Positions 1 to 18,400 are shown, counted from the first letter of the stretch. The stretch: DNA of 57,011 nucleotides from Kiritimatiellia bacterium (GCA_045627965.1 JAZQOP010000315.1:1-57011); one strand, 5' to 3'. Translations and numbers: made by a program. The notes: a model not told the origin generated them from the sequence alone.

Positions 1-3000
1 TGTCCGGTGTTGTTCCTTTTCCTTTCTTTTTTTTATCTTTCCTGGTGTCTTTTCCCCATGTCGACCTCCCACCCCCGCTACTCCCATACGCTCCCCCTGT
101 TCCGCCAATTCCCCCAGATCCTCCGCCGCCGACGCCAGACAAAGATGCAATAACGCCGCCCAAAGCAGTCGGATGATTGGTATCACAAGCCACTTTAATA
201 CTGAATGTTATATGTGAAAGTGCCCACTGGACATTTCCGTCTTTACAGACTGCGCAATACTTGCACAACGACGTTTCGATATCCTTGCAGACTTCATAGG
301 GGTCATCTGGGGGATCATCATCTGGCGGGCAATTATCTTTTGCCACTAATTTCCATTTTGGACACCCCCTTTCATCCTCCCCATTAGGCACCCATGATGC
401 GCACTGGGGATTAGGTTCAGGTTTTTCCTCGTCGTGGCACTCTTCAATACGTTCACAGTTATACTTTTCCCTTTCGTCATCCCATTTCAGTTCCTCGCAA
501 CATCTGCATTTTCCCGCATCGTCTTGCGGATCAAATGGATTTTTTTCTTCGTTTGTCCCTTTTGACTTGTACTCCTCTCCATCTTCCATGCCACCACCAT
601 CTGTGTCAGGATCCATTGGATTTGTTGATGTATAGGAATCCAATGGCGATGGCAATCCGTAATCGCCATCTCCCCCTTCGTATTTGTATTCCTCTCCGTT
701 TGTCATATCGTCATGGTCTGCATCGTCATCGGCATCCGCCTTCCACGGATTAAGGCCCTTGTAATTTTTACCCTTTGGCGGCACCATGTACATTACTTCG
801 AAGCCGTCAGGCATTTTATCCCCATCGATATCTGCCTCTAGCGGATGCGTACCAGCCAAGAATTCTTGCAAATTCGTTAGTCCGTCATCATCAAAGTCTT
901 GGTCAGCATCCGATGGATCCAGAGGATTCAAACCAGGTTTTCCTTCCTCCGCGACCGCATGGTATAAAGCTTCCCACATATTCGGCATGCCGTCGCCATC
1001 AAAATCCTGGTTGAGTATCACAGCCGTAAACTTCAAATGCTTGTTCGCTGCGTTAATGTAGCGCAGTCGAATGCCCACCTCACCCTGGTAGATGCCAGGC
1101 CCTGGATATTCATGTTGCAGCAGACGATTCAATTCAAAGCGGATATCAAATACCGTTGTTTTCCCCGACAGATCCAGCGTATACGGCTCATCCCCGTCGC
1201 CCCAGTCTAAGTAAAGTTCCATTGGCAGGTTTAGCCACTCATTGCCCAAGCCTGTCCAGGAGGGCAATGAAGCCTTGCGATTAGGCAGTACGATCCGTCG
1301 CAATGCTGGCTTAAAGGGAAGCGAAAATTGCGGCAGGCAAATTACAGGGGCCTCAAAGTCAAACCCTTCCAACTCGGGGAAATGGAAATTGATCCCTAGC
1401 CTCGTAAAATTAAGCTTCAGATTCGCCATATTTGCAAAAATTTGTGGCAGGCTCAGCCCCATGCTGAAATCTAGATTGGGGAACTTTAGACCCGCCAAAT
1501 CCAGATTAAATTCCCAGTCGGACCAGTCCTCAATGGCCGAAAAATCAAATGAAGGGAAGGTTAGTGGCCACGTACCACTAGGCCAGTTGAACTTCGGGAA
1601 CGATGGCGGCTCCCATCCTGAAAAGTCTGGCGGAAAACCTGGCCAACTGAATTTCGGGACCCAACCGAAAAGCGAACCCAAGTTGATATTTAGATCTGGG
1701 ATCAGCGGCTTGGGCCATCCAAATGCACCTTCCGCGCTTCCAAACGGCCATGAGAGTTTTGGCCACTCGAACGGTTTATCGCCGATCAACGGGCATTTCC
1801 ATGCCGTCCATTTAACTCCAAAAATTGAATCCAATATTGTTCCTTCAAAAGAAAGGAAATTTAATTCAGCCCCATAGTCTGTCCCCCATTCGAAATCGAA
1901 GTTCATCGTATCGATATTGGCATTAATCTTTGCAACTGCCTCAAACCAAGCCTTCCCATTCATTATATCTAATAGATTGATTTTTCCAGCAATAGCTTTT
2001 GCCTGAAAGGCCAATTTAGCTTCTGTACGGATTTTTGTGCTCCCTGTCACTCCCCCAGATAGTTCCCATTTATTCTTTCCGTCCCTAAAGCCGAGTTTTG
2101 GAGCATCAGGCCCGCTAACATGCCATCCGCCATCTATGTACTCGCCATAGCCAGGGTCTCGCCACACACGGACACGAGGCTCCCAGCGAAGTTCGGGATA
2201 ACTGTCCACTTCCGTCCCGACATTCCATGTCAAATCAACATCTAATTCATTTTCGATGGATGCGGTAAACCAAACGCCAACCACACTACAGTCCGCAATT
2301 GGCCAGGAAACATCTTTGCTCCCAAGCCCTATTTCCTTGTGAGCTGTTCCTGTTGCATTGGTGTGAACCTGAATATGCAACCCGAAAATGAAACTACGCT
2401 TCCACATTAATTCAAAGTGAATCCCTTGCTTCACCTCACTATAGAAAAGCATGGGGTGAAAGGTCCCTTCGGAAGTGTCAAAGGATACGTCTATAGTCGC
2501 ATTTTTATCCTTGGATTTCCAGACATTGACCTCAATGCCATCCCCAGCCCTAGACGATGCTCTATGCTGTAAGCCTGGCTCCTCTCCATCTGGAGAAAGG
2601 ATGTCCCCAGTAGGAACCAGCTGGAATGAAGAAAAGACATCTTTGACGTCCGTCACTTCCACTGTTTCCAATTGCCAGATATCTTCGGACCTTGAGCTCG
2701 AAACGACTTTTACAAGTGGAGGCCCCTGGTTAATTTCATTGTCAATGATAAACACTGTTCCTAGGGCAATCGGCTGCGACGGATTATCCAGCAACTGTCG
2801 CACAAGCAACTCCTGATTGGAGGCACCAGCGACCAAACTCACATACTCATAGTCCGTATTAGTGGGGCCTAAGATAATGACGTTGTCTCGCATAACCGGT
2901 GCGACAGGCTCAATAACCTCCACTCCATTGTTCAAGCGATATACGTTTGTTGTTCCATCTGACAATGTTGCCTTTAGCTCTATATCGTAGACGCCATTTG

Positions 3001-6000
3001 TCTCATATGTGTAGCGCGCATTCCGGTTTGTGCCGTCAACAACACCGTCTCCATTGAAATCCCATTCCCATTTCTCTACATCGCTTGGAATCCGGGTTTC
3101 ATCGAGATAGTCGATTTCGACGCGCAGCGGATAGGCTCCGAAATATGGCCAGGCAGCAAAGAAACAGCCTTCTTCAAACTCCAATTCCACTGTTTGTTCT
3201 GATCCACTTGCCACAACGACGGGGGCATTCGAAGTTGCCAATCTCCATTTTACATCTTCCGAATCAAAAAGGTACGTTCCCGCAGGCAAACCTTTGAATT
3301 CCAGGTGACCATCTTCATCACTCATCGCTCGATCCGGCATCAAGCCATGTTCCATATCATATGCTACGACCCATATCCCCGCAATAGGGGCTTCCGTCAG
3401 GGCCATTTTTGCCGTCGCATGCACAATGCCACCATGTGGCATTTCTAATGCCACCTCTGTATCGGATAGCAGCTCCACCTCTGTCGTGGGACTCTTGGCA
3501 AAACCTTGGTGGGCTAAAGCCTGTACTTCATATTCGCCCTCTCGCAAATTAGGAAAAGACCAGCGCCCTGCCGCGTCAGTTTCGGTTTTATCCCATCTAG
3601 ATGCCGATTTTAGTTGTACCGTCACCCCCGCCAACGGCATCCCCTCTCCTGTCACTTGCCCACTCAGGCAATAGTACAGTTCTTCCACATGGACGATACA
3701 ACCTGACAAGATCGGATTGCTCATGTCTTCAAAACAAACTTCATCTGCCGATTCTAGGCCAACTTCATCCGAATTGAATAAAAACGTACTCCCAACAGGA
3801 AGCCCCTCAAAGACAAAACTTCCATCAGGTCCCGTTATCGCCGTCCCAAACTTCTCCCATCGCATCACCCCCGCTGTTGTACTCTGACCACGGGTCCCTC
3901 GAATAACCAACTTTTTACCCGCAACCGGAGTCTCTGTCCCTGTCATCAACAAATATCCTTCTATTCTTCCCGACATCATTTCCGGATTACCAATTGGTAT
4001 ATTTTCGTTCTTTAATGCAAAAGCTCTTTCCGCCTGCTCATATGACTGGCGTTTGGCATCATCTTGGGCCGTTTGCATGTTTTGATAGGCAATAGCAGAA
4101 CGCTCATCCCTTGTTGTTACACGGACATTCACCCCTTGCATCGCTTGGAAGAAGAACGACAGCTGGCCCCTCTCTCCAGCTTTTAGCACGCACTCGGGCT
4201 CTGTCGGCGAAAAACCGCGCAAGAGGAGAGTTGACGAGACGAACGGCCCATCTGGTGACAACGACAGTACGGTTCCCCCCTCGTCCCCCGCACTCACGAC
4301 GAATTCCGGCAGCCACATGTCAGCATCCCCCTCGTTGGCATAAATTACAATACCTTCATATGTCACCCCCGCATGAAATTGCACGGGCATCATTGTCACC
4401 GTTCGTAGCACAGCCCCCGTCTCCGGCACACTGACAGAAATGGTTCCTTCCATCCACGCGGTTGTCAAGCCGTCGCTGATTCCAAATCGATATGTCCCAG
4501 CCATTGCCTCATGCAGATCAAAAATCGCATGTCGCCGCACAGGTCCTACCCCCCCGAGGACAGCTTCATATCGTTCATTCGTTCCTTCCCGCTGTAAAAC
4601 ACCTGCCACCCCGGTGGCCAAACCAATTCCATCCACTGTTATCGACGTATTTGTCGAAAGTGTTATTTCCTGCCGATCTGTCCCAAAAATCTGCATTCCG
4701 GCCCCCATTCCCTGCAACAATAAATTCGCATTTTCGTTCCCTGTATTTTTCAGTACCAAATACGCTTCTGTAGCGCTTGCTGACTTAGGCATCCACAGCC
4801 AAATAGCTCCATCTTCGCCCCGAATATTCTCCCAGGAATACGCCTCTGTCGGGATTCCGTGATATGCTCCCGTTGCGGTCCAATTCACGCCCACCCCGCT
4901 AACTTTCAAAGCCTGTTCATCTGTCCCCACTCCCGTCACAGCGTACACAAGAGCTTCATCAGCAGGGATTTCCACAGCCAATGAGCTCGCTACATCCCAA
5001 ACATCAGCCTTTGTTGTTAGGGTTTTGCCGCTTAGATTTTCATTTGGCTCCACTGCATCCAGTTTTTCCAATACACCTCCGTCAGCATTGGCCACAACTT
5101 TCACTTCCCATATCCGATCAGCGACAGGAGGCACAACAACCGTTGCCGAACATAGCATCTCTTCACCACCCCCGATTGTACCCGTATGTTCTACCTCGCC
5201 CAATGATACAGCTGCCCCATATGTTGGCACCAAACTCAAAGCATCCCGCCATGTTCCAGAAAATGCATCGCTGCCCGCATTCACCAGAGTCCACGTTACC
5301 GTCAGAGCATCTCCTGTCTTTGCTTCCGCAGGCTCCATCTGGATATCCCATACAAATATATCCACATCCGCTTCTGTGTACGTGGGCTGCCATTCATGCA
5401 AGCCAATGTCTGGGTAGATTCCCAAAGAATCCGCCGTTCCCGTCGGTGTGACATGCGGAGCATTGGTGCGTCCATTTTCGAACGCATCTACTGTTGCCCC
5501 AGCGACTGCATCCCCCGCATCAATCAACCCACTATACTTCGCAAGGCGAAAATCATAGTTTTCAGGATCAATAAAACACGGAGCCACTTCCAACTTCCTA
5601 TTCGCCTCCAACGGACTTGCGGAAACCATAATTCCTCGTTGTGAATAGAAATTGCATCGTTCAAATGTAACCATGCCGTCAAGATAAGTCGCGCCATACG
5701 TCCGGTAGTCACTGATGTCACAATTATAGAAGACACCATCCCCGCCACCTTGGTATACGCCCAACTCGCAGCAATCGATTACACAGTGTGTAAATTGGGC
5801 ATGGGATGCTCCTTTGACACCTGGCTCATCCAGATATACAGCCGCAATCTCTGTGTCGTATATCGCGCTGTTTGTCATCCATAGTTCACCATTATTCCAA
5901 ATGCCGATACCCGTTGAATGAGCCAGCAAGCTTCGGTCCATGTGTACAACACCTCCGCTACAGACAGTCAATAATCCTTGAGTATCCGTCCCGCCATATA

Positions 6001-6397
6001 GCAATTCTGCGTGGTGAAAATTCGCGGTCCCCGCTACGCTCACCCCTTCCCATGTTCCCGTTACAGCATCTTCCCCAATGGTCCGATATGTATATGATGC
6101 CGTGAATTTCACGGGGGCCGTTGCTGTCCCGTTCACCTCTAGCGTCCCCCCTCCCTGGACATACAAAGACGCACCATCTTCCAGCTTTACAACTGTCCCC
6201 GCAGCAATTGTCAAACTCGTTCCATTTCCAACAGTCACAGGCCCCGTTACAACAACAATCGATCCCGCGGGCCAGGTTCCCTCCACAAAATCAGGGTTTC
6301 CACCGCCGTTGCCGACACGGATGATTTCATCCGCCATTGCTAAGCAGGCGATAGTGCAGGCGCAGATCCAAATCGTCAGCTGTTTCATCGTTTTCAT
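1..6397 (-). CDS. Large secreted multidomain surface protein, 3' end cut by the window edge (2,132 codons visible). Order: signal peptide, right-handed beta-helix, CARDB-like domain, three carboxypeptidase-regulatory-like domains, PKD-like domain, Trp/Phe/Pro-rich region, acidic TSP3-like repeats, Cys-rich and Gly/Lys-rich tail.
   Basis: Not in the supplied ORF track because it has no in-window stop. I hand-translated the minus frame that shares phase with the giant ORF. It starts at ATG 6397..6395 (MKTMKQLTIWICACTIACLAMA/DEII), with GGAG 9 nt upstream. I checked codon by codon at 2-310, 482-1081, 1562-1621, 4082-4141, 5642-5701 and 6300-6397 and found no stops. A quicker read of the remainder was also open. 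No listed minus-strand ORF uses this phase between 1 and 6412. Confidence 0.8.
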   Translation of the reverse strand, partial: MKTMKQLTIWICACTIACLAMADEIIRVGNGGGNPDFVEGTWPAGSIVVVTGPVTVGNGTSLTIAAGTVVKLEDGASLYVQGGGTLEVNGTATAPVKFTASYTYRTIGEDAVTGTWEGVSVAGTANFHHAELLYGGTDTQGLLTVCSGGVVHMDRSLLAHSTGIGIWNNGELWMTNSAIYDTEIAAVYLDEPGVKGASHAQFTHCVIDCCELGVYQGGGDGVFYNCDISDYRTYGATYLDGMVTFERCNFYSQRGIMVSASPLEANRKLEVAPCFIDPENYDFRLAKYSGLIDAGDAVAGATVDAFENGRTNAPHVTPTGTADSLGIYPDIGLHEWQPTYTEADVDIFVWDIQMEPAEAKTGDALTVTWTLVNAGSDAFSGTWRDALSLVPTYGAAVSLGEVEHTGTIGGGEEMLCSATVVVPPVADRIWEVKVVANADGGVLEKLDAVEPNENLSGKTLTTKADVWDVASSLAVEIPADEALVYAVTGVGTDEQALKVSGVGVNWTATGAYHGIPTEAYSWENIRGEDGAIWLWMPKSASATEAYLVLKNTGNENANLLLQGMGAGMQIFGTDRQEITLSTNTSITVDGIGLATGVAGVLQREGTNERYEAVLGGVGPVRRHAIFDLHEAMAGTYRFGISDGLTTAWMEGTISVSVPETGAVLRTVTMMPVQFHAGVTYEGIVIYANEGDADMWLPEFVVSAGDEGGTVLSLSPDGPFVSSTLLLRGFSPTEPECVLKAGERGQLSFFFQAMQGVNVRVTTRDERSAIAYQNMQTAQDDAKRQSYEQAERAFALKNENIPIGNPEMMSGRIEGYLLMTGTETPVAGKKLVIRGTRGQSTTAGVMRWEKFGTAITGPDGSFVFEGLPVGSTFLFNSDEVGLESADEVCFEDMSNPILSGCIVHVEELYYCLSGQVTGEGMPLAGVTVQLKSASRWDKTETDAAGRWSFPNLREGEYEVQALAHQGFAKSPTTEVELLSDTEVALEMPHGGIVHATAKMALTEAPIAGIWVVAYDMEHGLMPDRAMSDEDGHLEFKGLPAGTYLFDSEDVKWRLATSNAPVVVASGSEQTVELEFEEGCFFAAWPYFGAYPLRVEIDYLDETRIPSDVEKWEWDFNGDGVVDGTNRNARYTYETNGVYDIELKATLSDGTTNVYRLNNGVEVIEPVAPVMRDNVIILGPTNTDYEYVSLVAGASNQELLVRQLLDNPSQPIALGTVFIIDNEINQGPPLVKVVSSSRSEDIWQLETVEVTDVKDVFSSFQLVPTGDILSPDGEEPGLQHRASSRAGDGIEVNVWKSKDKNATIDVSFDTSEGTFHPMLFYSEVKQGIHFELMWKRSFIFGLHIQVHTNATGTAHKEIGLGSKDVSWPIADCSVVGVWFTASIENELDVDLTWNVGTEVDSYPELRWEPRVRVWRDPGYGEYIDGGWHVSGPDAPKLGFRDGKNKWELSGGVTGSTKIRTEAKLAFQAKAIAGKINLLDIMNGKAWFEAVAKINANIDTMNFDFEWGTDYGAELNFLSFEGTILDSIFGVKWTAWKCPLIGDKPFEWPKLSWPFGSAEGAFGWPKPLIPDLNINLGSLFGWVPKFSWPGFPPDFSGWEPPSFPKFNWPSGTWPLTFPSFDFSAIEDWSDWEFNLDLAGLKFPNLDFSMGLSLPQIFANMANLKLNFTRLGINFHFPELEGFDFEAPVICLPQFSLPFKPALRRIVLPNRKASLPSWTGLGNEWLNLPMELYLDWGDGDEPYTLDLSGKTTVFDIRFELNRLLQHEYPGPGIYQGEVGIRLRYINAANKHLKFTAVILNQDFDGDGMPNMWEALYHAVAEEGKPGLNPLDPSDADQDFDDDGLTNLQEFLAGTHPLEADIDGDKMPDGFEVMYMVPPKGKNYKGLNPWKADADDDADHDDMTNGEEYKYEGGDGDYGLPSPLDSYTSTNPMDPDTDGGGMEDGEEYKSKGTNEEKNPFDPQDDAGKCRCCEELKWDDEREKYNCERIEECHDEEKPEPNPQCASWVPNGEDERGCPKWKLVAKDNCPPDDDPPDDPYEVCKDIETSLCKYCAVCKDGNVQWALSHITFSIKVACDTNHPTALGGVIASLSGVGGGGSGGIGGTGGAYGSSGGGRSTWGKDTRKDKKKKGKGTTPD
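540..1010 (-). repeat. Acidic D-x-D-x-D-G / thrombospondin-type-3-like putative calcium-binding repeats inside CDS 1..6397
   Basis: Hand translation gives DFDGDGMPNMWE, GLNPLDPSDADQDFDDDGLTNLQEFLAGTHPLEADIDGDKMPDGFE, NPWKADADDDADHDDMTNGEEY, NPMDPDTDGGGMEDGEEY and NPFDPQDD. Confidence 0.6.
1240..1800 (-). other. Trp/Phe/Pro-rich low-complexity segment with no family I recognise
   Basis: Translation reads FEWPKLSWPFGSAEGAFGWPKPLIPDLNINLGSLFGWVPKFSWPGFPPDFSGWEPPSFPKFNWPSGTWPLTFPSFDFSAIEDWSDWEF. Part of it (1562-1621) was verified codon by codon. Confidence 0.5.
2900..3100 (-). other. PKD-like domain inside CDS 1..6397
   Basis: WEWDFNGDGVVDGTNRNARYTYETNGVYDIELKATLSDG fits the WDFGDG...Y.Y...G.Y.V.L.V.D pattern of PKD domains. 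Confidence 0.55.
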
Positions 6398-6412
6398 CGT
6401 TGCATTCTCCGA

Positions 6413-9400
6413 TTAGTATCCAATCCTCGTCACTCGGAACGGCACTGTAACCGCCTCCTTCGCCTCGATTTGCGAAGGCGGCGCTCGCATCAGTTCATAG
6501 TGGAACTGGGTGCTGTTCTCCGGCATGGCCAAACTCACCTCATCCGCCCGCACCAAACCATGGTTTTCCAAGCGGAATTCACCATAATAGGTTTCGCCGA
6601 TCTTCATGTCCGGCAGTTCAATCAATGTCGGCGTCACCGTTACCACAGGGAATGGCACGTCTGTCTTGAATGTCATCTCGACGTTGATCATATATTCGTC
6701 AGTAAGGGTTGTTTCCGTGACGATAAAATCGACCTCGACGAGATTCAGGTTCAGGTGGACGCTTTGGACCTGCGTGGCGCCCGGCTGGATCCAGATGCGG
6801 CCGGTGGACTGCTCGTGGTCCGAGGCCTGGACCGTGTAGCGATAGGAGCCTTCGGGCAGGTCGCGGAAGAAGGCTTCGCCCTGGGCATCCGACGTCAAAT
6901 TGGTCGTCAGGTAGGAATCTTCGCGCTGCAGACGGATCAATGCGCCCGCCAAGCCTTCCGTAATCGTCCCGCCCAGGCCGATCGTCCCCGTATAAAGGTC
7001 AGTGACCTTGAACTGGGCGGCGCCGGTCGATGCCGTGCTGACATGGACGAACACGCGCACCTGGCGATCCGTATGGTTATCCGCCGTGAACGCCAGATGG
7101 AACTCGTAGGTTCCCTCCGCGACTTCGACCGATGGCGCGAAGCTGACGAGGACCTGGCGGCGTTCGTCAGGCTCCAGATCGCCCAGCGTCGTCGACGTAA
7201 GCATGCCCGCCCATGCCGGTGCGGCCGAGCCATCTGCGGCAGTCAGCGCCACCTGCGTCCCGCGCAGCGTCGTAAAGCCGCTGTTCCAAAATTCCAGCGA
7301 CGCCTGGACCGAACCACCGACTGTCACGCCGACCTCCGGCGTGGAAGGAGTCCAATTCATGGACGCCTCCGCATTCACGAAGCGGCACGTCACCGGCACC
7401 GTTCCCCAACCATCGGCCGGCCCGTTTTCACTGATGACCCGCAAGATGATCGTCCCTGTTTCGGGCGCATTCATGCCCGGCGTCACCGTGAACGGCAGGG
7501 AGCCGCTTGCGTTGGCCGCCACGCGGGCCAGGACCATATCGCTACGAACCGAGACGTTTTCCATCAGGGCACCGCCCGGCTGATCTTCGGCAAGGATGGC
7601 CAGCGCCGCGTTCGTCAAGGCGAAGTCCGGCCCCACCTTCACGCTTGCCTTTAGTTCGCGCGACTGGCCCCGTCGTTCCGTCAGCGAGAAGAACGCCGGC
7701 GAGACGTCAGCCGTTGCCACTTGGAACTGCAACTGTTCGGGACGCGCGGTCACGCTCGGATGAATGGCAGAAACCGAATAGATGCCCCCGGCCCCCGGCA
7801 GATATTCCATCGACCAGGCGCCGTGGACATCCGTCATGACGGTCTGCTCGGACTCAAAGCCATTCAGCATGACCACGACCTTTACGGGTACGTTCCCCTG
7901 GCCGGCACCGGTGTTGCGGTTAAAGGCCATCCCGCGAATCGTAAAATTCGTCGGTCCGAAGGAGAACTCCGGCGCCACCTCTGTTGCCTCGACGCGATAG
8001 ATTGTTTCATGCAAGGTCACCTCCTTGCTCGCGGAAAGACCTGCCATGTCGGCTTCGTCCGCCCAGCCCAGGTGATAATGGATCTGCCCGATTTCCACGA
8101 CCAGCCACACCTTGTCCGGCGAACCGGCGGGCACCGACAGCGGGATGTTCGCCGACTGGAAGGTGTTGCCGGACGGAACGCGGGCGACCGTCCGCCCATC
8201 CGAGAGGGTGCTCACGTTGCTCCCCGTGCGTTCCTGGCACCATGCGCGGGCCAGGACCATCCCATCCTCGTTCTCCAGCCGCACCTCAATCTCGCCGGCC
8301 GTTCCATTAGCCCCGGCCGTAACGATTTCGACCTCTTCCGCACTCGTGTTCCGCAGACGGAAACGAACCGACGATTCACCGCCGCGCAACAGTTCGGCGT
8401 TCAGGACCTCAAGCGATAGCTGGGCCGCGCCGAGGCTGATTTCATCCGAGGATTCGATCTCCATTTCACCGGCCCCCATGGTTCCGGTCAGGCGGTTCGT
8501 CAAGACGGTGACGAGCACATTCGTGCCCTCCTCGTGTCCGCCGACCATGACGGACACCTCGGTACTTCCTCCTGCCGGTACGACGAACATGGAGCTTTCC
8601 AATGTTTCGCCGTTTGCCGCCACATTCAGCTTCAGGCCGCTCACGTCCTGCGTTCCCGTATTTGTCACGTCATACCACAAGCGATTCATGACGCCGCTGT
8701 ACCAGGTCTGGTTTGTCCGCAACGTGGCCGACACCGCCGGCAGCCACATCTCACGCGCGACGCTTTCATTCCCGTTCCCCGGATCGATTGCCGTCACGCT
8801 GTATGTCCGCTCGCCCTGCGCCGCCGTGTAGCCCACATCCGTGAACGACGTGGTCATGGTGTCCAGCGTGGCCAGCAAGGCCTCCACATCGCCGCTGCCG
8901 CCGTAGACGTTGAAGCCACCGATGTTGCCCGGTTCCGAATGCGTCCAGGACAGGACCGGGGCGTTTGTCCCGACCACCTGCGCCTTCAGGCTGCTAACAG
9001 GCAGGAGAGCCAGGTTCGTGTAGGCGCAGGGCGACAATCCGCTCACGTTCCCTACCGAGTCGCGAGCCCTGACCTGGTAGTAGACCGGCCCCTGCGGTGG
9101 ATTCTTGTCCACCGCCGCCGGCAACGTCGCACGCGTCTCGATGGCCACAAGCGACGAGATATCCTCGGCACAGGCCTCGCCGCGATAGATTTCATAATAG
9201 AGCGCATCGACGGGCGCCCAGGCCATGTAGAGGCCGCTGCCCGTCAGGATCAGCTCGGGCGCTTCGGGGACATCGGGCGGCGTCGCATCGCTGACCACGC
9301 GCACCACGTTCCCGACCGCGCCTGTGGAAACCTGGCCATTTGCCGTCCGCAGGCTTGCCACCGCATAGTAGTTCGTCGCATCGCCAGCCATCTCCTCCCA

Positions 9401-12400
9401 GCCCGTCGTCGGGGAAACAGCAATCGGCTCCAGTGCGCCAGCGTTCGGACCGCGGAAGACGGCATAGCCGGAGGCCCCGGCGACATCGCGCCAGGCCAGG
9501 CTGACCCGTCCCCCTTCGCCGGCTGTCCACTCCAAGCCGCCCGGCGCGTCCAGTCCAGGCAGCTCGCCTTGATAGACCAGGAACTGGCTTTCGCCGCCGA
9601 TCGTCGTGCCCAAGTTGCCCAGCTCATCACGCCCTTCGTAGGAGAAGCGCAGCAATTCCGACGGTTGTCCCGCCGTCGAGGGCAGGTCGAACGATCCGAT
9701 CCACGTCCCAGACTGTCCGCCCTGGGCCAGCGCCACAGGCGTCCATTCAGGACTCGTTTCGGTCAACATCCATCGCAGGGTGGGTGTGTCGGAAGGCAGG
9801 TCGTCTTCCGCAAATGTCATGGTCACGGTTATGCGTCCGGGGCTGTCCGGATTATTTTCCACCGGTGCCGAAGGCAGGAGGGCCAGCGCAGCGAGACGAG
9901 GCCCCGCCGAGTCAAGTTCGATGGCCGTTCCGCCCAGGATGACCGTTCCACGGTTACCCGCAACGTCACGGCCCGAGAAACTGGCCACGGCCGTCCCTGT
10001 GGGCGTTGCATCGCCCACCTCGATGATTCCGGAGTATTCGCATTCGTTCGTTGCACTTTGGCGCAATGTCGGCGTAATCGGCGTGTTCCCTGCCACCGTC
10101 AGGCTCACAAACGGGATGGCTTGCAGCTTTTCGCTCACCGTCACTGTCACCGTTACCAAGCCGCGGCCGTAGGTCTCGCCGACCTTCGTCCCCGCTGTAC
10201 GGAAGGACAAGATTGCCGTCGGCGGTGTCCGGTCGCAGGTGGCCGAAGCGATTTCGCTCAAATCGCTTCCCGTGCCGGCGTTATTGACCGCCATGACGCG
10301 GTAGTAGTATGTCGTGTCAAGCGGCGTCTCGTCCGTGTAGGTTGTCGCCGTCAGCAGCTTCGAGTTGACACGGGTCGCCGAAAGGTGGCTGTCGAACGGC
10401 GTGCGCGAGCGATAGATCCAGTAGCCCTTCGCATCGAGCGCACCCGCCCATGTCAACTTCACGGTGCCGCCTTCCTGCGCGGTCGCCTTCAGAGTCGTCG
10501 GAGCTTCCGGCACGCTCGAATCAACGATGACGCGTACCGGGGTGCTAAACACCCCTTGGCCGGCGCGGTTCTGGCCGGCGGCCTTCAGACGGTTCACGCC
10601 GTCGCCCAGCGTCACATATCCGGCGAAAGCGCCATCCGAAGCCGGGGCCCACTGCGCCGCCAGCACATCGTTCACATACACATTCACCATGTCCGCGTTC
10701 TTCGCCCCCGTTCCCGTCACGCTCAAGCGGGTCTTGCTGAGCATCTTCTCCGTGGCGGGGCTTGTGATGGTCGGCGCACCGGGGAGAGCCAGTTGCACCA
10801 TCAAGTTCGTCGTCAAGATACTCTCGTTGCCCTTCGTGTCGAGCGCACGGATTTCCAGCTCATACGGGCCATCGGCTTCCGTCGTCGAGACCTTCCAGGA
10901 TGCCGTCGCGTTCGTCGAGGCGCTACTGCTCCCCAAAAGGCGTCCGTCGATGCGCACCTCGATCCGCGCCACGCCGGCACGATCCGTCGCCGAAACGGCC
11001 AAGGTCCCGTCCGCGCGAAGCGCCGTTCCCGACGTCAGAGGAATTCCGTCCCAACGCAGATTCCCAATGGATGGACCTTCCGTATCGGGGCGAGGCACCG
11101 CCGCCGAAGCGACCACCGCAGGGTCCATTCCACCGGCGATATTCTCGGCCGCCACGGCGAACCAGTAGGTCTGGCCATTGACCAGGTTGGCCACCTGGTT
11201 TGTAAGCGCCTTCGTCCAGACGAGCGCTTCCATTCCCTCGACACTGGCAAATTCCTGGGTCGACACAAAGACGGCATAGCGGCGCACCAGGTTTGTAGGT
11301 TCGGCCGCTGTCCATGCCAAATCTACCGTCTGCTCATAGACATCTGCAATATCGGCGACCGGGTTGGCCAGCCATGTCGCGCCCGTGGCCGTCTTGCCCG
11401 AGCTCATGTTGCCATCGCGGTCGTAGGCGCGAATCCGGACCGGATATGCCGTCGCTCCGAGGAGATGGTCGCGGCGGACAGCCAATTCGGCATTCGTCGC
11501 CGGCACCATTTCACCATCGCCGGCATCGGCGTCAAACTTCACGACATAACCATCCAGGTCGCCGTCTCCGTTCGCCGCCGGCATCCAATGCACCACGAGG
11601 TTGCTCGCGCCGCAATCGAACCAGATGTTCGTCGTGTCGGCAGGCGCCACTACGTCCATCGTCGTCGCCGGGACGCTCACGACGCGGCGGCGTTCGTTCC
11701 CCGCGGTATCCCGCGCGGCGACCGCGAACCAATAGGTTGTGTTCCGCGACAGGTTGTCTACCGTGTACCTCTTCGTTCCCGAGGACACGCTTGCCCGGAA
11801 CGTCGCCAGCATGCTGTTCGTGAAGGCCCCGTCCGTCGACATGTAGATCCGATACGACGCGATATCGTTGCCATTCTCGTATTCGTTGTAGTTCGTCCAG
11901 GCCAGCTTCACCTGGGTCCCGTTCCCCTGGCCATCCGCCGTGATCGTGACCGCGCCGGGCGCATTGTCTTCATAGTAGATGGCCACAATCGTCTCGCTGC
12001 TCCGATTTCCGGCCGCGTCTTGGGCAAACAGGACGATTTCGTTGTCTCCGCCCTCCAAGGAGACGGTGTACGACCAGTTCGTCGCTCCTTGCGATCCGCT
12101 TGCCTGCCGACCATTCACCCAGACTGTCGAACCGGCTTCCTTCCAACCGTGCAGCGTCTGGCTCGAAATGGTCGTCGGCGACAGCACGCCTTCCGCCACC
12201 GGCACAGCCGGAGGCATCGTATCCACCGTGAAAGTGGTCTGCTGCTCTCGCGAGTTCCCCATCAAGTCCGTCAAGGTGATCTTCACCGTGTAGGCTCCGT
12301 CAGGCAACGTTCCAGCGAACACGAACTCGGCGCGGTTCGTGCCGACCGACGGCGTTCCCGGCGCCCCCTCGACAGGTGTGTCGCCGCGACGGACCTCCAG

Positions 12401-15400
12401 GGCGCAACGTGCGGCATCCACCCCCGTCGTCGCGTCCCGATAGGTCACCACCACGTTGCTCGGGCTGGTGGCCAATGTCGCCCCGTTGCCCGGGGTCACC
12501 GAATCCACCGTCGGGGCCACATTGTCCACCCAGAAGCGATATTCGACCTCGTCGCTCTCGTTCCCGGCCTGGTCGCGAGCCTTCAACCGAAGGGTGTTCA
12601 GGCCTTGGGACAGGCTGGTCGACCAACTCCACTCGCCGTCCGCTTCAGCCGCGCGGAGGGTGCCGTTCACCCAAATGCTTTCCACCTCGGGACGCATCCC
12701 TCCGATCGTAATGGACGTCACGCGCAGGTCGTTCGTCGCGGGGGCCATCGTCCAACCATCCAGCACTGGCGGCACCGGAGCCGTCCAGTCCAGGCGCATC
12801 CAGTTCGTATAGGCCTCCAGCATCTCCATGCCGGAAACGCTAACCAGCGTCGGGGCCAATGTCAGCGAATAGTCGCCTTCCGCTGTCGCACCACCATCCA
12901 GCCATGCCACCCAGACGCTTCCCGCCAAGCCGGAAGCCGCAACCTGCTCGACATTCGTCACCTCAACGACGCCGGCCGGTCCGACGACCGTCAACGCGTC
13001 CGTGCCAAACGTCCCCTCGCGCACCTGGGTCGAGAACTCGAAGCGGATGCATTCCACCGCCGTCGTCACCAAGCCTTCCGGCGACATGCCCAGCACGCGG
13101 ACAGGGACACGTTCGCCGATCCACACCGTGCCATCCTCGGCAGCCGCTTCGCTCAAGCCGCTTGTCCCGGCCGCGCTGGAGAGGTGTTCGGCGTCGAATT
13201 CCGTCATGTCGCTGTAGTACACGGCGATGCGCCCGCCACCGCCACCGACCTGGCCGTTGCCCGAGCCGCCACCGCCGCGGGCCATCATCCAACCCGCGCC
13301 CTTGAGCGTCGTCGCCTCGACATACACGCTGCCTCCGGCGCCGCCCGCCGAGTTGCCATTCGGAGGATTCGCGCCGTCCGCCAGGATGTTCCCTTCCAGG
13401 TCCAGCGTGCCCGCCACGATACGGACCACGCCACCGCCAGCGCTCCCCGTGTTCGCCGTCCCGGAGCCGCCGCCCGGCCAGATCGGGCTATACATGTCGC
13501 CGTACGTTGCCCCAGGCGTCCCGTCATAGGCGCCGCCCAGTCCGCCATGGCTGCCGCCGGACCGTCCCGTGCTCGCCCCTGCGGTCGCATTTTGATACGT
13601 CCGCCCCGGACGGTAGCCCTTGCCGCGGACGTCGATGGAGCTGTCCGCCGAAACCGACAGCGTATCCGCCACCTGCAGGTTCACGGCATACGTCATATTC
13701 GTCGTCGCCACAGGATGCGTCAACGTCGCGCCGTTCGTCAGCGACAACGCCCGCAACGCCAAAGGCTCCTGCACTTCCAGGTGCGCCTGGTTTTCCAGGC
13801 GCACCTCGGCATTTGTCAGCGCCGACAGCCCGGACTTCGCACGCACCACGACGCCGCTGCCCGACACGACCGCCAGGCCGTCATACGGCTCCGCATCTTC
13901 CGGCAAGAACAGGGCGGCAACACCGCCGGCGGCGCTGCTCCCACGCAGGATCTTCACCACCGGCTCCTCGCCGGCCGGCGCCACGTACAACGTCCCGGAT
14001 CCCGCCGCCGGCGACCCATAGCGGGCGCCGCCGCTCACGTTCACATGCTCCTCCAGCACAAAACCTTCCGTAAGCGCCTGGTAGGCCACCGATACACGAC
14101 CGCCACCGCCGGCGCCGTAGTATTGCGAAGCGCCGCCGGCTGCCGAAACATTCCCGATGCCGCCCAGGACGCCGGCATCCAGGCGAACGCTGCCACCAGC
14201 GCCTGAGCCGTACGAATTCTCCGCGCCGGCCGCGGTCACCGTTCCGTCGACGATGATCCGAGGAGCCGCCAAGGCAATCACGCCACCGCCGTTGCCGTTG
14301 CCGCCACCGGAACCCGGCAAGGCAGGATGGCGGAAATCGTCATACACTTCACCGGTCGTCCCGCTGGAAACACCACCATAGCCGCCATGGCTGCCGCCGG
14401 CATATCCTGTCGCTCCACCAACCGTCGTGTTGTTCGGCGCCGTACGTTTTGCCCCATACCCCTTCCCGGTCGCGTCGATGCGGCTCCCGGACTCCACCCA
14501 GATTTCCCCGTCAGCCGTCACATCCATGTACCCCGTCCAGTTCGTCGTCGACACATCATGCGTCACCTGGCCCCCGTTCACCACCCACAGGTTTGCCAGG
14601 TGATGCGTTCCATTCAGTGTCAGCGTCGTCCCGTTCACCAGCACGCTCTTCCCTTCAAGCGCCGTCCCGTTCGTTGCGACCGTCGTGGAACTCGTCAGTT
14701 CCGTGTCATACGGCAGATCCGTCACGGTGAAACGCCACGTGACCGTTTCACCCGTATTGCCCGCGCGATCCTTCGGTGTCACCGACACCTGCCACGTTCC
14801 AATCCCGAACGGCACGGCCGGGGTAAACGCCGCATTGGTGCTCCCGTGCGTCCAAGTCCCCTCCACGACGGCTCCGTCCTTGGCCAGCGACAACGTCGTC
14901 TGATCCCAGTCCATTCCGCTCCCCATTTCCCAGAAACGGACATCCACCTGGGCCGGCGGAGCCTCCGAGGGGAAGTACGCCTTGTCCTGCGGGCTCTTCT
15001 GGGTGACATACGGGCTGTTGTAGTCCACGAAGATGTGATACGTGTTCGTCTCCGAATGGTTCCCCGCCAGGTCCACGCACCAGAAGCGCATGTCGCGTTC
15101 CCCGTTCGAATACGATGAATACCAAGACCATTCCCCGTTCCCCTCGGCCACCTTCTGGTAGTCGTCCACCCAGAGCGCCGTCCCGTCCGTTCGCGTCCCC
15201 GTGATCGTCAGCCACGAATTACGCACCCAGTTCGTGACGCCGGCCCCCGCCATCCAGCCGTTCACCGTCGGCATTTCCGGCGTTTCCGAAAGAACGACCA
15301 CGCTCCCGCCTTCCGCTGCGGACATCTGCGCGCCGAACAAGCCGCCCTGCACAGCCGGCCCAATCATCAGATTGTGCTGGCCCTGCTCCGTCGTCGTCGG

Positions 15401-18400
15401 GAAAATGACCTTGTACGTCCGCTCATCCAGACGCATCAGGCGGCTCGCCGTCACCGCCCCGCTCGGCCCCTCCATCGTGGCGTCGGAGACGTCGAACGTC
15501 GCGGCATCCACGTCCTGGTTGAACTGAACCGTCCACGTTCCCAGCCACTGGGCCCAGCCGGACGGCTCTGCCTTGTCGACCCGCAAAGGAGCAGGGCCCG
15601 TCATCATGTAGATCGTCCCCGGGTCGCCTAGGTAATAGCCATTCTGCTTGCGCCCCTCCGACACGCTCATCTGCGACTCCACCTCAAAGCCCAGGTTCGT
15701 TGCGGCCCAGATGGCCACGCGGCCGCCGCCGCCAGTGTAGGCATAGCTCGACGACGTCGTAGTCGCCGCGCCGCCCTCGGCCATCACGAAACCATTGCCC
15801 GACAACACTCCCGTATCCAGCCAAATGCTCCCGCCTGCACCCGTAGACTGCGTATTGGTCGCCCCGTTGGCCATCACCGTCCCGTCCAGGACCATCTCGC
15901 GTGCCTGGATTCGGATGACACCGCCGCCGGCACTCTGCGCGCCGCCGCTGCCCGGCTCATGGGGATTCGTCTGGTCGCCATACGGCTGGAGACTGCTGCT
16001 CCCGCCCTTGCCGCCGTGCGAACCGCCCGCCGAAATGCTGTTCGTTCCCGTCATCCCGCCCACCCCCGTCGGCCAGCCCTTCCCGGTCACATCCACGGAA
16101 CTGTCGGCCCCCACCCACAGCATCTTGTCCAGCACCAGGTCGACCGAATGCACCACGCCTGTCTCGCAGGCGGGATGGGTCACTACGGCACCATTCGTCA
16201 AAATCAAGCCCTTCAGGCGATGCACGCCGTCAAACTCGATGGTTGCGCCATCCGCGAGCAAAAGCTTCCCTTCATAGATGTCGTCCCCGGCCGCCACGCT
16301 GACCTGGCCAGTCAAAACAAGCGCGTCAAGGCCTTCGAAGCGACCCGTTTCGGAATTTGTCCATTCACCGGCGGCATTCCCCGCGCGGACCGCCCACTCA
16401 TACGTTCCATCTTCTCCGAACGCCCAATTCCAGCACGTTTCCGTCGTCGTCCCCAGAACCGCCAATTCACCGCCTTCGTGTCCAGCCAGCACCTCGTAGA
16501 TCACCGCGCAGTCGCTACCGGCCCACGTCAGCAAGGCTTCATTGACCGCATAGCCGCCATCCTGCGGCCGCGACAGGATCGGTGCCTGCAACGGATACGC
16601 ATCCGTCATCACGAAGTCCGTCTCCTGGGCATCCGCCACCACTTCTTCAAAGGCCACTTCCGCCGGCTCAAATGTACCGCAGCCCCATTCCGCCGCAACA
16701 CGGCCGATCCAGCCATCCGGCACGGCAATCGCCCACCAGCCCGTTCCAGCCTCGGTCTCGACCTCGGCCAGCAACGTCTCGGCGCCGCCTTCTTCCGATG
16801 CCGCCGTCCAGGCGCGCACGATCGCACCATCCACCGGACGCCCATCCAGCCCCAGGACCACACCGGCAAGCGTCGGCGTTTCCTCCATTGAGCGCACCAC
16901 CCACGTCACCTTTACGTCCTCCGACACATTCGCCAACGTCAACGACGTCCCGCGTCCGGCAAAAGCCCCGTTCGTCAGCCAATACGACGTCGTGCATTCC
17001 GTCGAGCCCTCCAGCGTCAGCTCCGAGCCAGGGGCCACGAACTCGCGCTGAGGCTCCACGTTGCCGCTCCCACGGCATTCCGCCGTCACCCACCAACCTT
17101 CCACGGCCCCTTCGATGGCCCCCATATCCACCGCCTCGCCTTGCACGCGCGGATTCCCCTCCAAATCCAATGCCTCTTGCGGCAACGACGAATCGCCCGC
17201 ATCCACGCACGCCGATCCGGACCGCAAGCGATAATCCCCGCGCGCCGCATCCACGAAGATGTCATCCAGCGCATCGCCCATCCACGAATGCACCAGCACA
17301 TTCCCCATTCCCTCTTCCTCAATGCTTCCTGCCACAATACTGTTCGCCAACCGGGAGGCCTGCGTGCCGACACATCCCGTCAGCGTGCAGTTGACGGCCG
17401 TCGCCGAGCGCAACAAGCCATCCACCAGGCAGCTTTCCAGCTCGCTCCGTTCCACGGCCCCCGCCACGCGGCAACGCTCCAACCGTCCACCCGATGTCCC
17501 AGTCCTGGGGCCAAATTCAAACGCCCCCATGTCTGGTGCAGCTCCATAAATCCGTTCATTTCCAGCCAAATCCGTCGGCGAATTTGTCGCAAAGTTCGCG
17601 TATCCGGCATCAATGCAAGGCGACCCGTCTCGCAGTGCATAATTCCCGCATGCCGCATCCACGAAAAGCGGATCCCCTGTGACCGTTGCCTCGCTGTCCT
17701 GCAAGCAAGAGGCCAAAATCGAACCATAGGTACCGCTCACGCCATTCCCCCACACGATGCTGTTCCTCAAAGATGCTCCGTTCACGCCCCACCCACTGTT
17801 ACCGGCAATTGTGCAATTCGCGGCCAATCCGCCCAAAACCCCGTTGCCCACATTGTCAGCCACCAGGCAACTGTCCAGCTGAGCATTATTCACCACTTGG
17901 CATATGGCGGTATTCCCCACCATTTGGCTCCGAACGGCTGTTGCGTCGCCTACGACAACGTTTCCTGTGCACCGAATAATCGAACAGTCCTCCAGGCGGC
18001 TGGACGACACCACAGCAGAAGCAGATTGGCAGTCCTGAATTACGCAGTCTTTTAGGAGACCGCTCGTCAGCACAGCCACTTCACCGGTCGTTCCCCCGTT
18101 CTGGAGTGTGAAGCCCTCAAACACCATGTTGGTAGAAGCTCCTCCACCAGCAGCCGAAATTAAGGCTTCCCAACCTGCCCCCGTCACAGAACTGTCCGAA
18201 TAGAAACCAAACGACAACACACCGCTGTCCGTTGTATAGTTCCAGTTGACGAACGAACCCAACGTTTGACGGCTCACTTGAGTGCTCCCGTTGGAGACGG
18301 CCAAGTAATCGCAACACGATTCCCCTCCTGCAGTCACAAATGTTAGGGCCAATGCCCCCCCTGTAGCATTTCGGAACGTATACGTCAACCGTTCCGAATT

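What the first reader, a model, noticed from the sequence alone, without database searches (positions are those of the whole stretch)
1..6850. Sharp compositional break that begins inside the last ~130 codons of the giant ORF
I counted G+C in single 60-nt lines. On the left: 24/60 at 1-60, 29/60 at 3001-3060, 25/60 at 6661-6720 and 32/60 at 6601-6660. Further right in the giant gene: 44/60 at 13441-13500 and 38/60 at both 33001-33060 and 34021-34080. Codon choice also flips, from GC3-rich to AAA/GAT/TTT-type codons. The shift starts near 6.8 kb, inside the giant gene's terminal Ig-like domain. It does not start at the gene boundary, and it continues through the entire downstream gene. This fits a recently acquired 3' cassette (terminal domain plus partner gene) recombined onto a resident gene. 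It also fits a chimeric contig end.
Basis: seen in the sequence. Interest (0 to 1): 0.62.

Follow-up and report, generated by a model that had tools for sequence, protein, structure and literature searches.

The report
Strain-variable AT-rich cassette in RHS gene
The sudden drop in G+C at the left end of this contig is real and is not an assembly error: it marks the fast-evolving front two-thirds of an RHS-type secreted protein gene that sits behind a giant surface-protein gene and is swapped as a block between strains of one gut bacterial species.

Summary
The G+C step is real. G+C is 0.494 at 1-6400 and 0.631 at 6401-12800, among the top ~1% of such steps in the MAG. At synonymous sites the break lies at the gene boundary (6265-6490), not at 6.8 kb. 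The dip at 6.4-6.75 kb is mostly amino-acid composition: a terminal domain with GC2 0.32-0.39 in every homologue.

The downstream ORF is the first 2,132 codons of a ~3,480-aa RHS-shell protein with a Sec signal peptide. Its remaining codons start contig C193.

Three independent SRA assemblies show the same order, giant gene then RHS gene, two of them with the same 15-nt spacer. A chimera is very unlikely.

A conspecific strain is 99.3-99.7% identical in the flanks. It carries a deeply divergent allele of a ~10.3-kb block (window 8950..1 plus C193 146..1522). The shoulders are 70-78% identical at nucleotide level. The 6.3-kb core is 32% identical at protein level, and that core is the low-G+C tract.

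GC3 tracks protein conservation along the gene in all four alleles found.

So a swapped cassette exists, but with other limits than proposed. The composition break is not its recombination scar. Why the core is AT-rich is unresolved.

The parts
6413..39979 (-). Giant ORF of 11,188 aa. Domains in order: BspA-type LRRs, DUF1565 beta-helix modules, InlB-B repeats, Big_13/fn3/Glucodextran_B, CarboxypepD_reg. GC3 is about 0.73 overall.
6416..8950 (-). 'Shoulder': the last 845 codons of the giant ORF. Against the conspecific strain L018 it is 70-78% identical in nucleotides and 78-89% in amino acids, ungapped, with dS about 2 and dN 0.07-0.135. The stretch 16393-8951 just upstream is 99.3% identical (dS 0.01-0.03). 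The recombination breakpoint lies between 9269 and 8950. GC3 here stays at 0.77-0.81.
6416..6742 (-). Terminal ~109-aa domain of the giant protein (LVEVDFIVTETTLTDEYMINVEM...PFRVTRIGY). Its low GC2 (0.35) produces the apparent onset of the G+C drop near 6.75 kb. It is 41% identical to the homologous domain of G033 and has the same low GC2 in L018, L017, L102 and G033.
6398..6412 (-). 15-nt spacer (TCGGAGAATGCAACG) with a Shine-Dalgarno-like GGAG 8 nt before the ATG. L018 and L019 also have a 15-nt spacer, and its sequence is conserved.
6332..6397 (-). Start codon and Sec-type signal peptide (MKTMKQLTIWICACTIACLAMA) of the RHS-family gene. Still 74-86% identical to L018 at nucleotide level. The GC3 and codon-usage change-points fall in 6265-6490.
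2..6397 (-). First 2,132 codons of a ~3,480-aa RHS/YD-shell protein. Domains: beta-helix, CarboxypepD_reg x2, PKD, a W/F/P-rich region, TSP3-like repeats, a Cys-rich stretch, a Gly-rich linker. GC3 is 0.476. This is the hypervariable core: 32%, 37% and 35% amino-acid identity to the alleles in L018, L017 and L100.
1..6255 (-). Stretch that cannot be aligned with the conspecific allele at nucleotide level. The blastn alignment to L018 ends at 6255. This is the core of the variable block.
1..115 (-). Contig end inside the Gly-rich/Lys-rich linker. It overlaps C193:145-31 at 86% identity. C193:145-4197 carries the RHS shell and the C-terminal domain.

Best explanation
**The two genes.** The window's left end holds two co-oriented genes, apparently one operon, of a gut bacterium of the Kiritimatiellia/PVC group. 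The first is an 11,188-aa surface-protein gene. Fifteen nucleotides later comes a ~3,480-aa RHS-shell protein gene with a Sec signal peptide. Its first 2,132 codons fill window 6397..2 and its last 1,351 codons open contig C193.

**What the step marks.** The G+C step marks the border between the GC3-rich end of the giant gene and the AT3-rich, hypervariable N-terminal two-thirds of the RHS gene. It sits at the gene boundary. The earlier onset seen in raw G+C is the amino-acid composition of a conserved terminal domain.

**The variable block (shown).** The AT-rich tract is the core of a ~10.3-kb block: window 8950..1 plus C193 ~146..1522. This block exists as deeply divergent, collinear alleles in strains that are otherwise 99.3-99.7% identical. 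Whole alleles have therefore been exchanged by homologous recombination, with crossovers in the giant gene and in the RHS shell.

**Why the core is AT-rich (inferred).** Recent SNPs in the flanks run GC to AT 39:8. High GC3 in this genome must then be actively maintained.
- My preferred reading, about 0.5, is that a segment evolving fast, and too divergent between alleles to recombine or undergo biased gene conversion, drifts towards AT.
- The alternative, about 0.4, is that the window and L018 cores descend from lower-G+C relatives among which such cassettes circulate.

**Function (inferred).** The variable part is the exposed, specificity- or antigen-determining part of a giant-fibre plus RHS-cargo system. 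The shell and the C-terminal payload stay constant between the two strains.
For: - **Step and its position:**
- **RHS identity of the downstream gene:** full-length homologues of 3,452-3,530 aa carry RHS_repeat and TEN_YD-shell. C193:145-4197 has 8 RHS_repeat stretches and is 92% identical in amino acids to L018 residues 2180-3530. The next two genes are 99.2% identical.
- **Synteny in independent assemblies:** SRR21150884, SRR21150979 and SRR12177551; the SRR29514863 contig starts just upstream of its RHS gene.
- **Abrupt identity breaks:** no mismatch between 9268 and 8951, dense mismatches from 8950 on. dS rises from 0.01-0.03 to about 2. On the other side, the last dense mismatch is at C193:1522, then 24 mismatches in 8,500 nt.
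- **Core divergence:** 32% amino-acid identity, against 94.5% for the last 3,326 aa of the giant protein.
- **The L018 allele is absent from this MAG**.
- **All four alleles share the pattern:** residues ~450-2100 are 15-50% identical in every pair. GC3 correlates with conservation along the gene, rho 0.72, 0.74, 0.74 and 0.49.
- **L018 has the same dip:** GC3 0.48-0.58 in codons 1-2200, recovering to 0.65-0.81 in the shell.
- **GC3 recovers in this genome too:** 0.75-0.81 from C193:208.
- **Polarised SNPs:** GC to AT 39, AT to GC 8.
- **Functional link of the giant module with RHS:** in G025 and G033 the homologous 1,500-aa C-terminal module is fused in frame to RHS repeats. G033 ends in a Tle1-like phospholipase domain.
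Against: - Contiguity of this particular allele therefore rests on one assembly plus synteny in relatives.
- C315 and C193 overlap imperfectly (86%). They might come from two co-existing strains.
- The tetranucleotide signature of 1-6400 is the most atypical in the MAG (r 0.26). Its best partner is the L018 core (r 0.56). This fits a foreign, lower-G+C origin at least as well as in-situ decay.
- The cores of L017 and L100 are only mildly depleted, and paralogous regions in relatives are G+C-rich. Low G+C is therefore not intrinsic to the protein family.
- SNP polarisation used an outgroup ~25% divergent and G+C-rich. That biases the count towards GC to AT.
- No function was tested.
Confidence: 0.75

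Rival explanations
1. Recent horizontal acquisition from an unrelated, lower-G+C donor. In this reading a 3' cassette, made of the giant gene's terminal domain plus the whole partner gene, starts at ~6.8 kb.
For: Window 1-6400 has a G+C of 0.49 against a genome average of 0.66. It also has the lowest tetranucleotide correlation in the MAG. GC3 of 0.48 is about the 2nd percentile of long ORFs. GC3 in the last 109 codons of the giant ORF is mildly lowered, to 0.67.
Against: The synonymous-site break is at 6265-6490, not 6.8 kb. The terminal domain is 89% identical in amino acids to the conspecific allele and 41% to G033, with the same low GC2 everywhere. The slot is occupied by a collinear orthologue in four related assemblies. 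The best hits of both sides come from the same clade. No protein above 36% identity exists among 5.8 billion. The block lies entirely inside two ORFs, with no room for mobility genes.
Confidence: 0.12
2. Assembly or binning chimera. The last 6.4-6.8 kb of the contig belongs to another organism, or to another strain, joined at the gene junction.
For: The tract lies at a contig end of a 368-contig MAG. The overlap with C193 is imperfect at 86%, which hints at more than one strain in the sample. Read evidence could not be obtained.
Against: The junction sequence is conserved in L018 and L019: the ...PFRVTRIG motif, stop, a 15-nt GGAG spacer, then ATGAAA and a signal peptide. Shoulder-type homology to L018 (74-86% in nucleotides) runs ~150 nt past the start codon into the low-G+C gene. 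The gene's continuation and its 99%-identical neighbours are in the same MAG. Shoulders of equal depth (dS about 2) flank the core on both sides, as expected for one imported haplotype. Another run holds 91% of sampled words across 5400-7800, but it is probably the source sample.
Confidence: 0.03
3. No exchange at all. The gene pair diverged in place, and the AT-rich tract only reflects weak codon bias in a poorly expressed, fast-evolving gene.
For: GC3 correlates with protein conservation in all four alleles. Other giant genes of the MAG also carry low-GC3 blocks within the gene. The SNP spectrum is AT-biased.
Against: Flanks with dS of 0.01-0.03 abut sequence with dS of about 2 within a few hundred bases on both sides. 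This cannot arise by in-place divergence between two strains. In the shoulder, the window and L018 are as far apart as either is from the different species L017.
Confidence: 0.05

Closest known systems
Rhs/YD-repeat polymorphic toxin genes of Enterobacteriaceae, with C-terminal displacement (Jackson et al. 2009, PMC2935791)
   Same: Both have an RHS-repeat shell protein and a sharp composition break inside or next to the gene. In both, one part is replaced by recombination while the shell is conserved. E. coli rhs has a G+C-rich core and an A+T-rich divergent extension.
   Different: The polarity is reversed. Here the shell and the ~240-aa C-terminal domain are 99-100% identical between the two strains, with GC3 of 0.71-0.82. 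The swapped, AT-rich part is the ~2,100-aa N-terminal region, together with the last 845 codons of the preceding gene. The protein has a Sec signal peptide and no PAAR/VgrG-type N-terminus was detected. The canonical C-terminal DPxG motif is altered (…LSPTPG…). An immunity gene was not identified.
Variable receptor-binding regions of CdiA contact-dependent inhibition proteins (own knowledge; not tested here)
   Same: Both are very long exported proteins in which an internal or N-proximal segment occurs in discrete, deeply divergent classes between strains of one species. Both are flanked by conserved sequence that allows homologous exchange.
   Different: No homology to CdiA/TpsA was found, and no CdiB partner. 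The variable block here crosses a gene boundary.
Hypervariable low-G+C surface loci kept polymorphic within species, such as O-antigen/capsule clusters and the flagellin central domain (own knowledge)
   Same: Nearly identical flanks, abrupt breakpoints, alleles as divergent as between species, and a lower G+C than the genome.
   Different: Here the alleles are collinear versions of one protein-coding segment. They are not sets of different biosynthetic genes.
Tc-type A + BC toxin complexes and teneurin YD shells (own knowledge; named only, nothing fetched)
   Same: A very large first protein is followed by an RHS/YD cocoon protein. In relatives the two are fused.
   Different: No TcA-like domains were detected in the giant protein. 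No evidence for a complex was obtained.

Membership tests
RHS/YD-repeat protein (Pfam PF05593 RHS_repeat, PF25023 TEN_YD-shell) | Multiple RHS/YD repeats forming the shell | tested here: met
   The repeats are not inside the window. They are on the continuation C193:145-4197, with 8 RHS_repeat stretches at E 8e-40. Full-length homologues P0005-P0007 carry PF05593 and PF25023.
RHS/YD-repeat protein (Pfam PF05593 RHS_repeat, PF25023 TEN_YD-shell) | Conserved shell-closing motif (…YDPxxGRxxxxDPxG…) followed by a C-terminal payload | tested here: inconclusive
   C193 reads …GRLYDPTTGRWLSPTPGTLEAG…, followed by ~240 aa with no Pfam match. G025 and G033 have the canonical …RDPIGE… and …RDPIEE…. PF03527 is found in G025 only.
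Polymorphic toxin system with C-terminal displacement | Strain-variable, A+T-rich C-terminal tip with an adjacent immunity gene | tested here: not met
   The tip is 99-100% identical to L018, with GC3 of 0.71-0.72. The next gene (856 aa) has no family match and is 99.2% identical. The relative G025 does show a low-G+C 3' tip, 0.39-0.44.
Horizontally acquired genomic island | Atypical composition | tested here: met
Horizontally acquired genomic island | Absent from the same site in close relatives; flanked by mobility genes, a tRNA or direct repeats | tested here: not met
   The site is occupied by a collinear orthologue in L018, L019, L017 and L100. The block lies wholly inside two ORFs. No tRNA or repeat scan was run.
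Allelic replacement at a hypervariable locus (homologous recombination in conserved flanks) | Near-identical flanks, abrupt breakpoints, collinear but deeply divergent alleles within one species | tested here: met
   Flanks are 99.3% and 99.7% identical. Breakpoints are at window ~8950 and C193 ~1522. Shoulders have dS of about 2, and the core is 32% identical in amino acids over 98% of its length.
Assembly chimera | A junction not found in independent assemblies or reads | tested here: not met
   The junction architecture is present in independent assemblies.

The most novel reading that the evidence does not exclude
Gut Kiritimatiellia carry a two-part surface weapon or adhesin: a >11,000-aa fibre plus a separately exported RHS cocoon protein. 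Its specificity determinant is not the toxin tip. It is a co-adapted pair of segments, the last ~845 aa of the fibre and the first ~2,100 aa of the RHS protein. These are inherited and exchanged between strains as one ~10-kb 'serotype-like' allele. The allele's core becomes AT-rich because, being too divergent to recombine, it escapes the GC-biased force that holds the rest of the genome at GC3 of about 0.9.
Probability: 0.3. Interest if true: 0.65.

Novelty: new variant of a known kind. Interest (0 to 1): 0.5.

Why it matters
- It turns an unexplained composition anomaly at a contig end into a defined population-genetic object: a strain-variable allele block with mapped breakpoints in an uncultured gut lineage.
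- RHS-type loci can be polymorphic at the N-terminal, presumably targeting or exposed, end while the shell and payload stay fixed. This is the reverse of the textbook rhs pattern.
- It links an 11,188-aa orphan surface protein to RHS cargo, through operon structure here and in-frame fusion in relatives.
- It offers a natural test of whether GC3 in G+C-rich bacteria is maintained by recombination. The same gene carries recombining (GC3 about 0.8) and non-recombining (about 0.5) parts side by side.
- It is a practical warning for binning. The most 'foreign-looking' 6.4 kb of this MAG is native.

Tried and rejected
- **Read evidence.** Only succeeded. It found one run holding 91% of sampled words, and horse and mouse-gut runs holding 24-42%.
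- **A misreading of my own.** My first nucleotide comparison covered only window 8000-5400. It led me to think the whole giant tail was ~75% identical with saturated dS. blastn over 10 kb corrected this: the tail is 99% identical down to 8951 and only then divergent.
- **Exact 41-nt junction pattern in JGI metagenomes.** No match.
- **Protein-guided scan of metagenome contigs with the giant's last 400 aa.** One locus was found (L102). There a different, unrelated TSP3-containing gene follows the giant gene.
- **Orthologues of the giant gene's internal low-GC3 tract.** The search returned only 31-38% relatives, and the 11,278-aa orthologue was not retrieved. The L018 record is not held for whole-record search. 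Whether that tract is also strain-variable stays open.
- **Gene conversion from paralogues in the same genome.** Rejected. C13 and C191 are only 28-29% identical.
- **Low G+C as a property of the protein family.** Rejected. The homologous regions of paralogues in relatives have a G+C of 0.63-0.76.
- **ORF picking.** My first greedy longest-ORF gene list picked wrong frames in this G+C-rich genome. I filtered it by GC1 and GC2.


Full report
**1. Setting.** The window is the whole of contig C315, the longest of 368 contigs in a 2.33-Mb MAG with 66.4% G+C. Position 1 is therefore a contig end.

All real genes on the contig lie on the minus strand. At 41-57 kb lie RNase G, RodA, PBP2, MreC, MreB and others, with GC3 of 0.90-0.93. 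A small gene sits upstream of the giant ORF. The giant ORF is 6413..39979 (11,188 aa). An ORF at 2..6397 runs off the end.

The best MreB matches are Kiritimatiellae/Kiritimatiellia and Victivallales MAGs at 78-80% identity. The only run search that worked found the stretch in gut, horse and mouse-gut metagenomes.

**2. The observation.**
- G+C is 0.494 for 1-6400, 0.631 for 6401-12800 and 0.695 for the housekeeping part. Only about 1% of comparable 6-kb steps in the MAG are as large.
- By tetranucleotide z-scores, 1-6400 is the most atypical of 191 windows (r 0.26; next lowest 0.49; median 0.81). The giant gene is also in the lowest 3-9%.

**3. Where the break is.** In raw G+C the fall begins near 6.75 kb. 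Split by codon position, that first part is a fall in GC2 to 0.17-0.37, with GC3 still at 0.60-0.77.
- A one-break likelihood model on GC3 puts the break at 6305-6356. The 2-lnL interval is 6265-6452, and GC3 goes from 0.769 to 0.476.
- A log-likelihood ratio of synonymous codon choice, conditional on the amino acid, puts it at 6451 with support 6427-6490.
- The last 115 codons of the giant ORF still use AAG and TTC. The AAA share is 0.00 and the TTT share 0.17, against 0.62 and 0.61 in the downstream gene.
- The terminal 109-aa domain has GC2 of 0.35 here. It has GC2 of 0.39, 0.36, 0.36 and 0.32 in L018, L017, L102 and G033, where GC3 ranges from 0.70 to 0.94. It aligns with G033 at 41% identity, E 3e-26.

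The onset inside the last ~130 codons is therefore mainly a conserved amino-acid-composition effect. A modest local GC3 dip (0.83 to 0.67) accompanies it. The codon-usage flip belongs to the next gene.

**4. What the downstream gene is.** It starts 15 nt after the giant's stop, behind a GGAG, and has a Sec-type signal peptide. Pfam finds a beta-helix, two CarboxypepD_reg domains and a PKD domain. The sequence continues with TSP3-like repeats, a Cys-rich stretch and a Gly-rich linker at the contig end.
- The only proteins that match it end to end among 5.8 billion are three of 3,452-3,530 aa at 32-36% identity. All three carry RHS_repeat and TEN_YD-shell.
- The missing part is on contig C193. 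C315 nt 1-115 overlap C193 nt 145-31 at 86% identity, inside the Gly/Lys-rich linker. C193's first ~100 nt are a poly-G-rich, probably poor-quality end.
- C193:145-4197 encodes 1,351 aa with 8 RHS-repeat stretches and a ~240-aa C-terminal domain without family match.

The complete protein is about 3,480 aa.

**5. Not a chimera.** Logan assemblies of other SRA runs carry the same arrangement.
- SRR21150884 (66-kb contig) and SRR21150979 have a giant gene (11,278 aa), a 15-nt spacer, a 3,530-aa RHS gene, an 856-aa gene and a 387-aa DUF1573/rhodanese gene.
- SRR12177551 has the same order with a 260-nt spacer.
- The contig from SRR29514863 begins just upstream of its RHS gene.

The junction itself is conserved: …PFRVTRIG[Y/R]*, TAAT.GGAG.ATGC…, then ATGAAA. 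C193 continues with the same two neighbours at 99.2% amino-acid identity. The low-G+C tract is thus bracketed on both sides by DNA of the same species.

**6. A strain-variable block.** I compared the window with L018.
- It is 99.3% identical from 16393 to 8951 (dS 0.01-0.03). There is no mismatch between 9268 and 8951.
- From 8950 leftwards mismatches are dense. Nucleotide identity is 70-78% and amino-acid identity 78-89%, ungapped, with dS of about 2 and dN of 0.07-0.135.
- This 'shoulder' continues through the stop, the spacer and the signal peptide to 6255. Beyond that the sequences no longer align as DNA, and the proteins are 32% identical over 98% of their length.
- On C193 a second shoulder (68-89% in nucleotides) runs to nt 1522. 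Then only 24 mismatches follow in 8,500 nt.

The block is therefore about 10.3 kb with a 6.3-kb core. The L018 allele is absent from this MAG. In the shoulder, the window and L018 are as far apart (0.76-0.84 in amino acids) as either is from L017 (0.68-0.81), which is a different species at ~75% nucleotide identity throughout.

Such a contrast over a few hundred bases requires allele replacement by homologous recombination. Which strain is the recombinant is open. L018's shoulders have lower GC3 (0.62-0.70) than its flanks (0.72-0.83). The window's shoulders (0.75-0.81) match their flanks. By composition, the L018 allele looks the more recently imported.

**7. The composition break is not that event's scar.** In the window allele GC3 is about 0.8 on both shoulders and about 0.48 only in the core. 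It returns to 0.75-0.81 from C193:208.

The same shape is seen in L018, with a core of 0.48-0.58. It is weaker in L017 and L100, with dips to 0.64-0.79 against 0.82-0.91.

Across the four alleles, residues ~450-2100 are 15-50% identical in every pair, while the shell is 68-100% identical. GC3 correlates with conservation along the gene: rho 0.72, 0.74, 0.74 and 0.49. The AT-rich tract is therefore the hypervariable core, in every lineage.

**8. Why the core is AT-rich (inference).** SNPs between the window and L018 in the 99% flanks, polarised with L017, are 39 GC to AT against 8 AT to GC. Per site this is about 2.6-fold. The distant G+C-rich outgroup inflates the figure.

High GC3 must therefore be maintained by selection or by biased gene conversion. 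A fast-evolving segment whose alleles are too divergent to recombine would drift to AT.

Against this, the window core has the most foreign tetranucleotide signature in the MAG, and it resembles the L018 core most (r 0.56). Paralogous regions in relatives are G+C-rich. Descent of these two cores from lower-G+C relatives is thus nearly as likely. No donor was found.

**9. Wider context.**
- The 1,500-aa C-terminal module of the giant protein is 36% identical, end to end, to modules in G033 (a 9,429-aa ORF with two copies) and G025 (4,079 aa).
- There the reading frame continues into a Cys/Gly-rich linker, RHS repeats and a C-terminal domain. That domain is a Tle1-like phospholipase in G033.
- In G025 the 3' tip and what follows drop to 0.39-0.44 G+C.

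Giant fibre and RHS cargo are therefore one functional unit in this order, split into two genes in the window's lineage.

In one JGI contig (L102) an unrelated TSP3-containing gene follows the giant gene instead. Other giant genes of this MAG (C13, C83, C167, C191) and the middle of this one (17.2-27.7 kb, with GC3 down to 0.46) also carry low-GC3 blocks within the gene. This suggests the phenomenon is general here.

**10. Comparison with known systems.** E. coli rhs genes have a G+C-rich conserved core and an A+T-rich, displaced C-terminal extension (PMC2935791). Here the polarity is reversed. The tip and shell are constant between strains, and the N-terminal region is the variable, AT-rich part. 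The block also crosses into the preceding gene.

In behaviour it resembles hypervariable surface loci and the variable receptor-binding segments of other long exported toxins (own knowledge). Membership in the RHS family is met for the repeats, inconclusive for the closing motif, and not met for the variable AT-rich tip.

**11. Verdict.** The chimera reading is very unlikely. I class this as a new variant of a known kind, of moderate interest.

Noticed in passing
window 17200-27700 (giant ORF aa ~4100-7500): This is an internal low-GC3 tract inside the giant ORF (GC3 0.46-0.70; minimum at 22.6-23.2 kb). It has the same AAA/TTT/GTT-rich codon style as the downstream gene. It may be a second variable cassette. 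The conspecific contig I could read stops at 16.4 kb, so this could not be tested.
   Followed up: partly
G000 contigs C13:13325-27895, C83:3177-27899, C167:308-11782, C191:1608-11981: Other giant ORFs of the MAG (3,458-8,241 aa) also contain sharply bounded blocks of GC3 0.47-0.63 inside frames with GC3 of 0.8-0.97. Mosaic composition within a gene seems a general trait of this genome's giant surface-protein genes.
   Followed up: partly
L014/L015 (G033:C21) and L016 (G025:C46): In two genomes of other families of the same order, the homologue of the giant's C-terminal 1,500-aa module is fused in frame to RHS repeats and a toxin-like tip. The tip is Tle1-like phospholipase in G033. G033 has the module twice in one 9,429-aa ORF. 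G025's 3' tip and downstream DNA drop to 0.39-0.44 G+C.
   Followed up: partly
L102 (JAEEGJ010081025.1) 2302-4884: A relative's giant gene ends with the same terminal domain (85% in nucleotides to L017). It is followed by an unrelated TSP3-containing gene of more than 860 aa with a signal peptide, instead of the RHS gene.
   Followed up: partly
C193 (L101) nt 1-145 and window 1-115: The contig break falls in a Gly-rich linker. C193 begins with a long poly-G-rich run containing an in-frame TAG, which looks like a sequencing or assembly artefact. The 70 clean overlapping bases differ at several positions, which hints at two strains in the sample.
   Followed up: no
C193 (L101) 3400-4197: The shell-closing motif of this RHS protein reads …YDPTTGRWLSPTPG… instead of the canonical …DPxG… seen in G025 and G033. 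The following ~240-aa, apparently helical C-terminal domain has no Pfam match. The next gene (856 aa) also has none.
   Followed up: no
window 2400-1300 (downstream protein aa ~1330-1700): This is an unusual W/F/P-rich stretch with many FxWP/FSWP-like motifs (…GWPKPLIPDLNINLGSLFGWVPKFSWPGFPPDFSGWEPPSFPKFNWPSGTWPLTFPSFDF…). It has no family match and lies in the most divergent part of the cassette.
   Followed up: no
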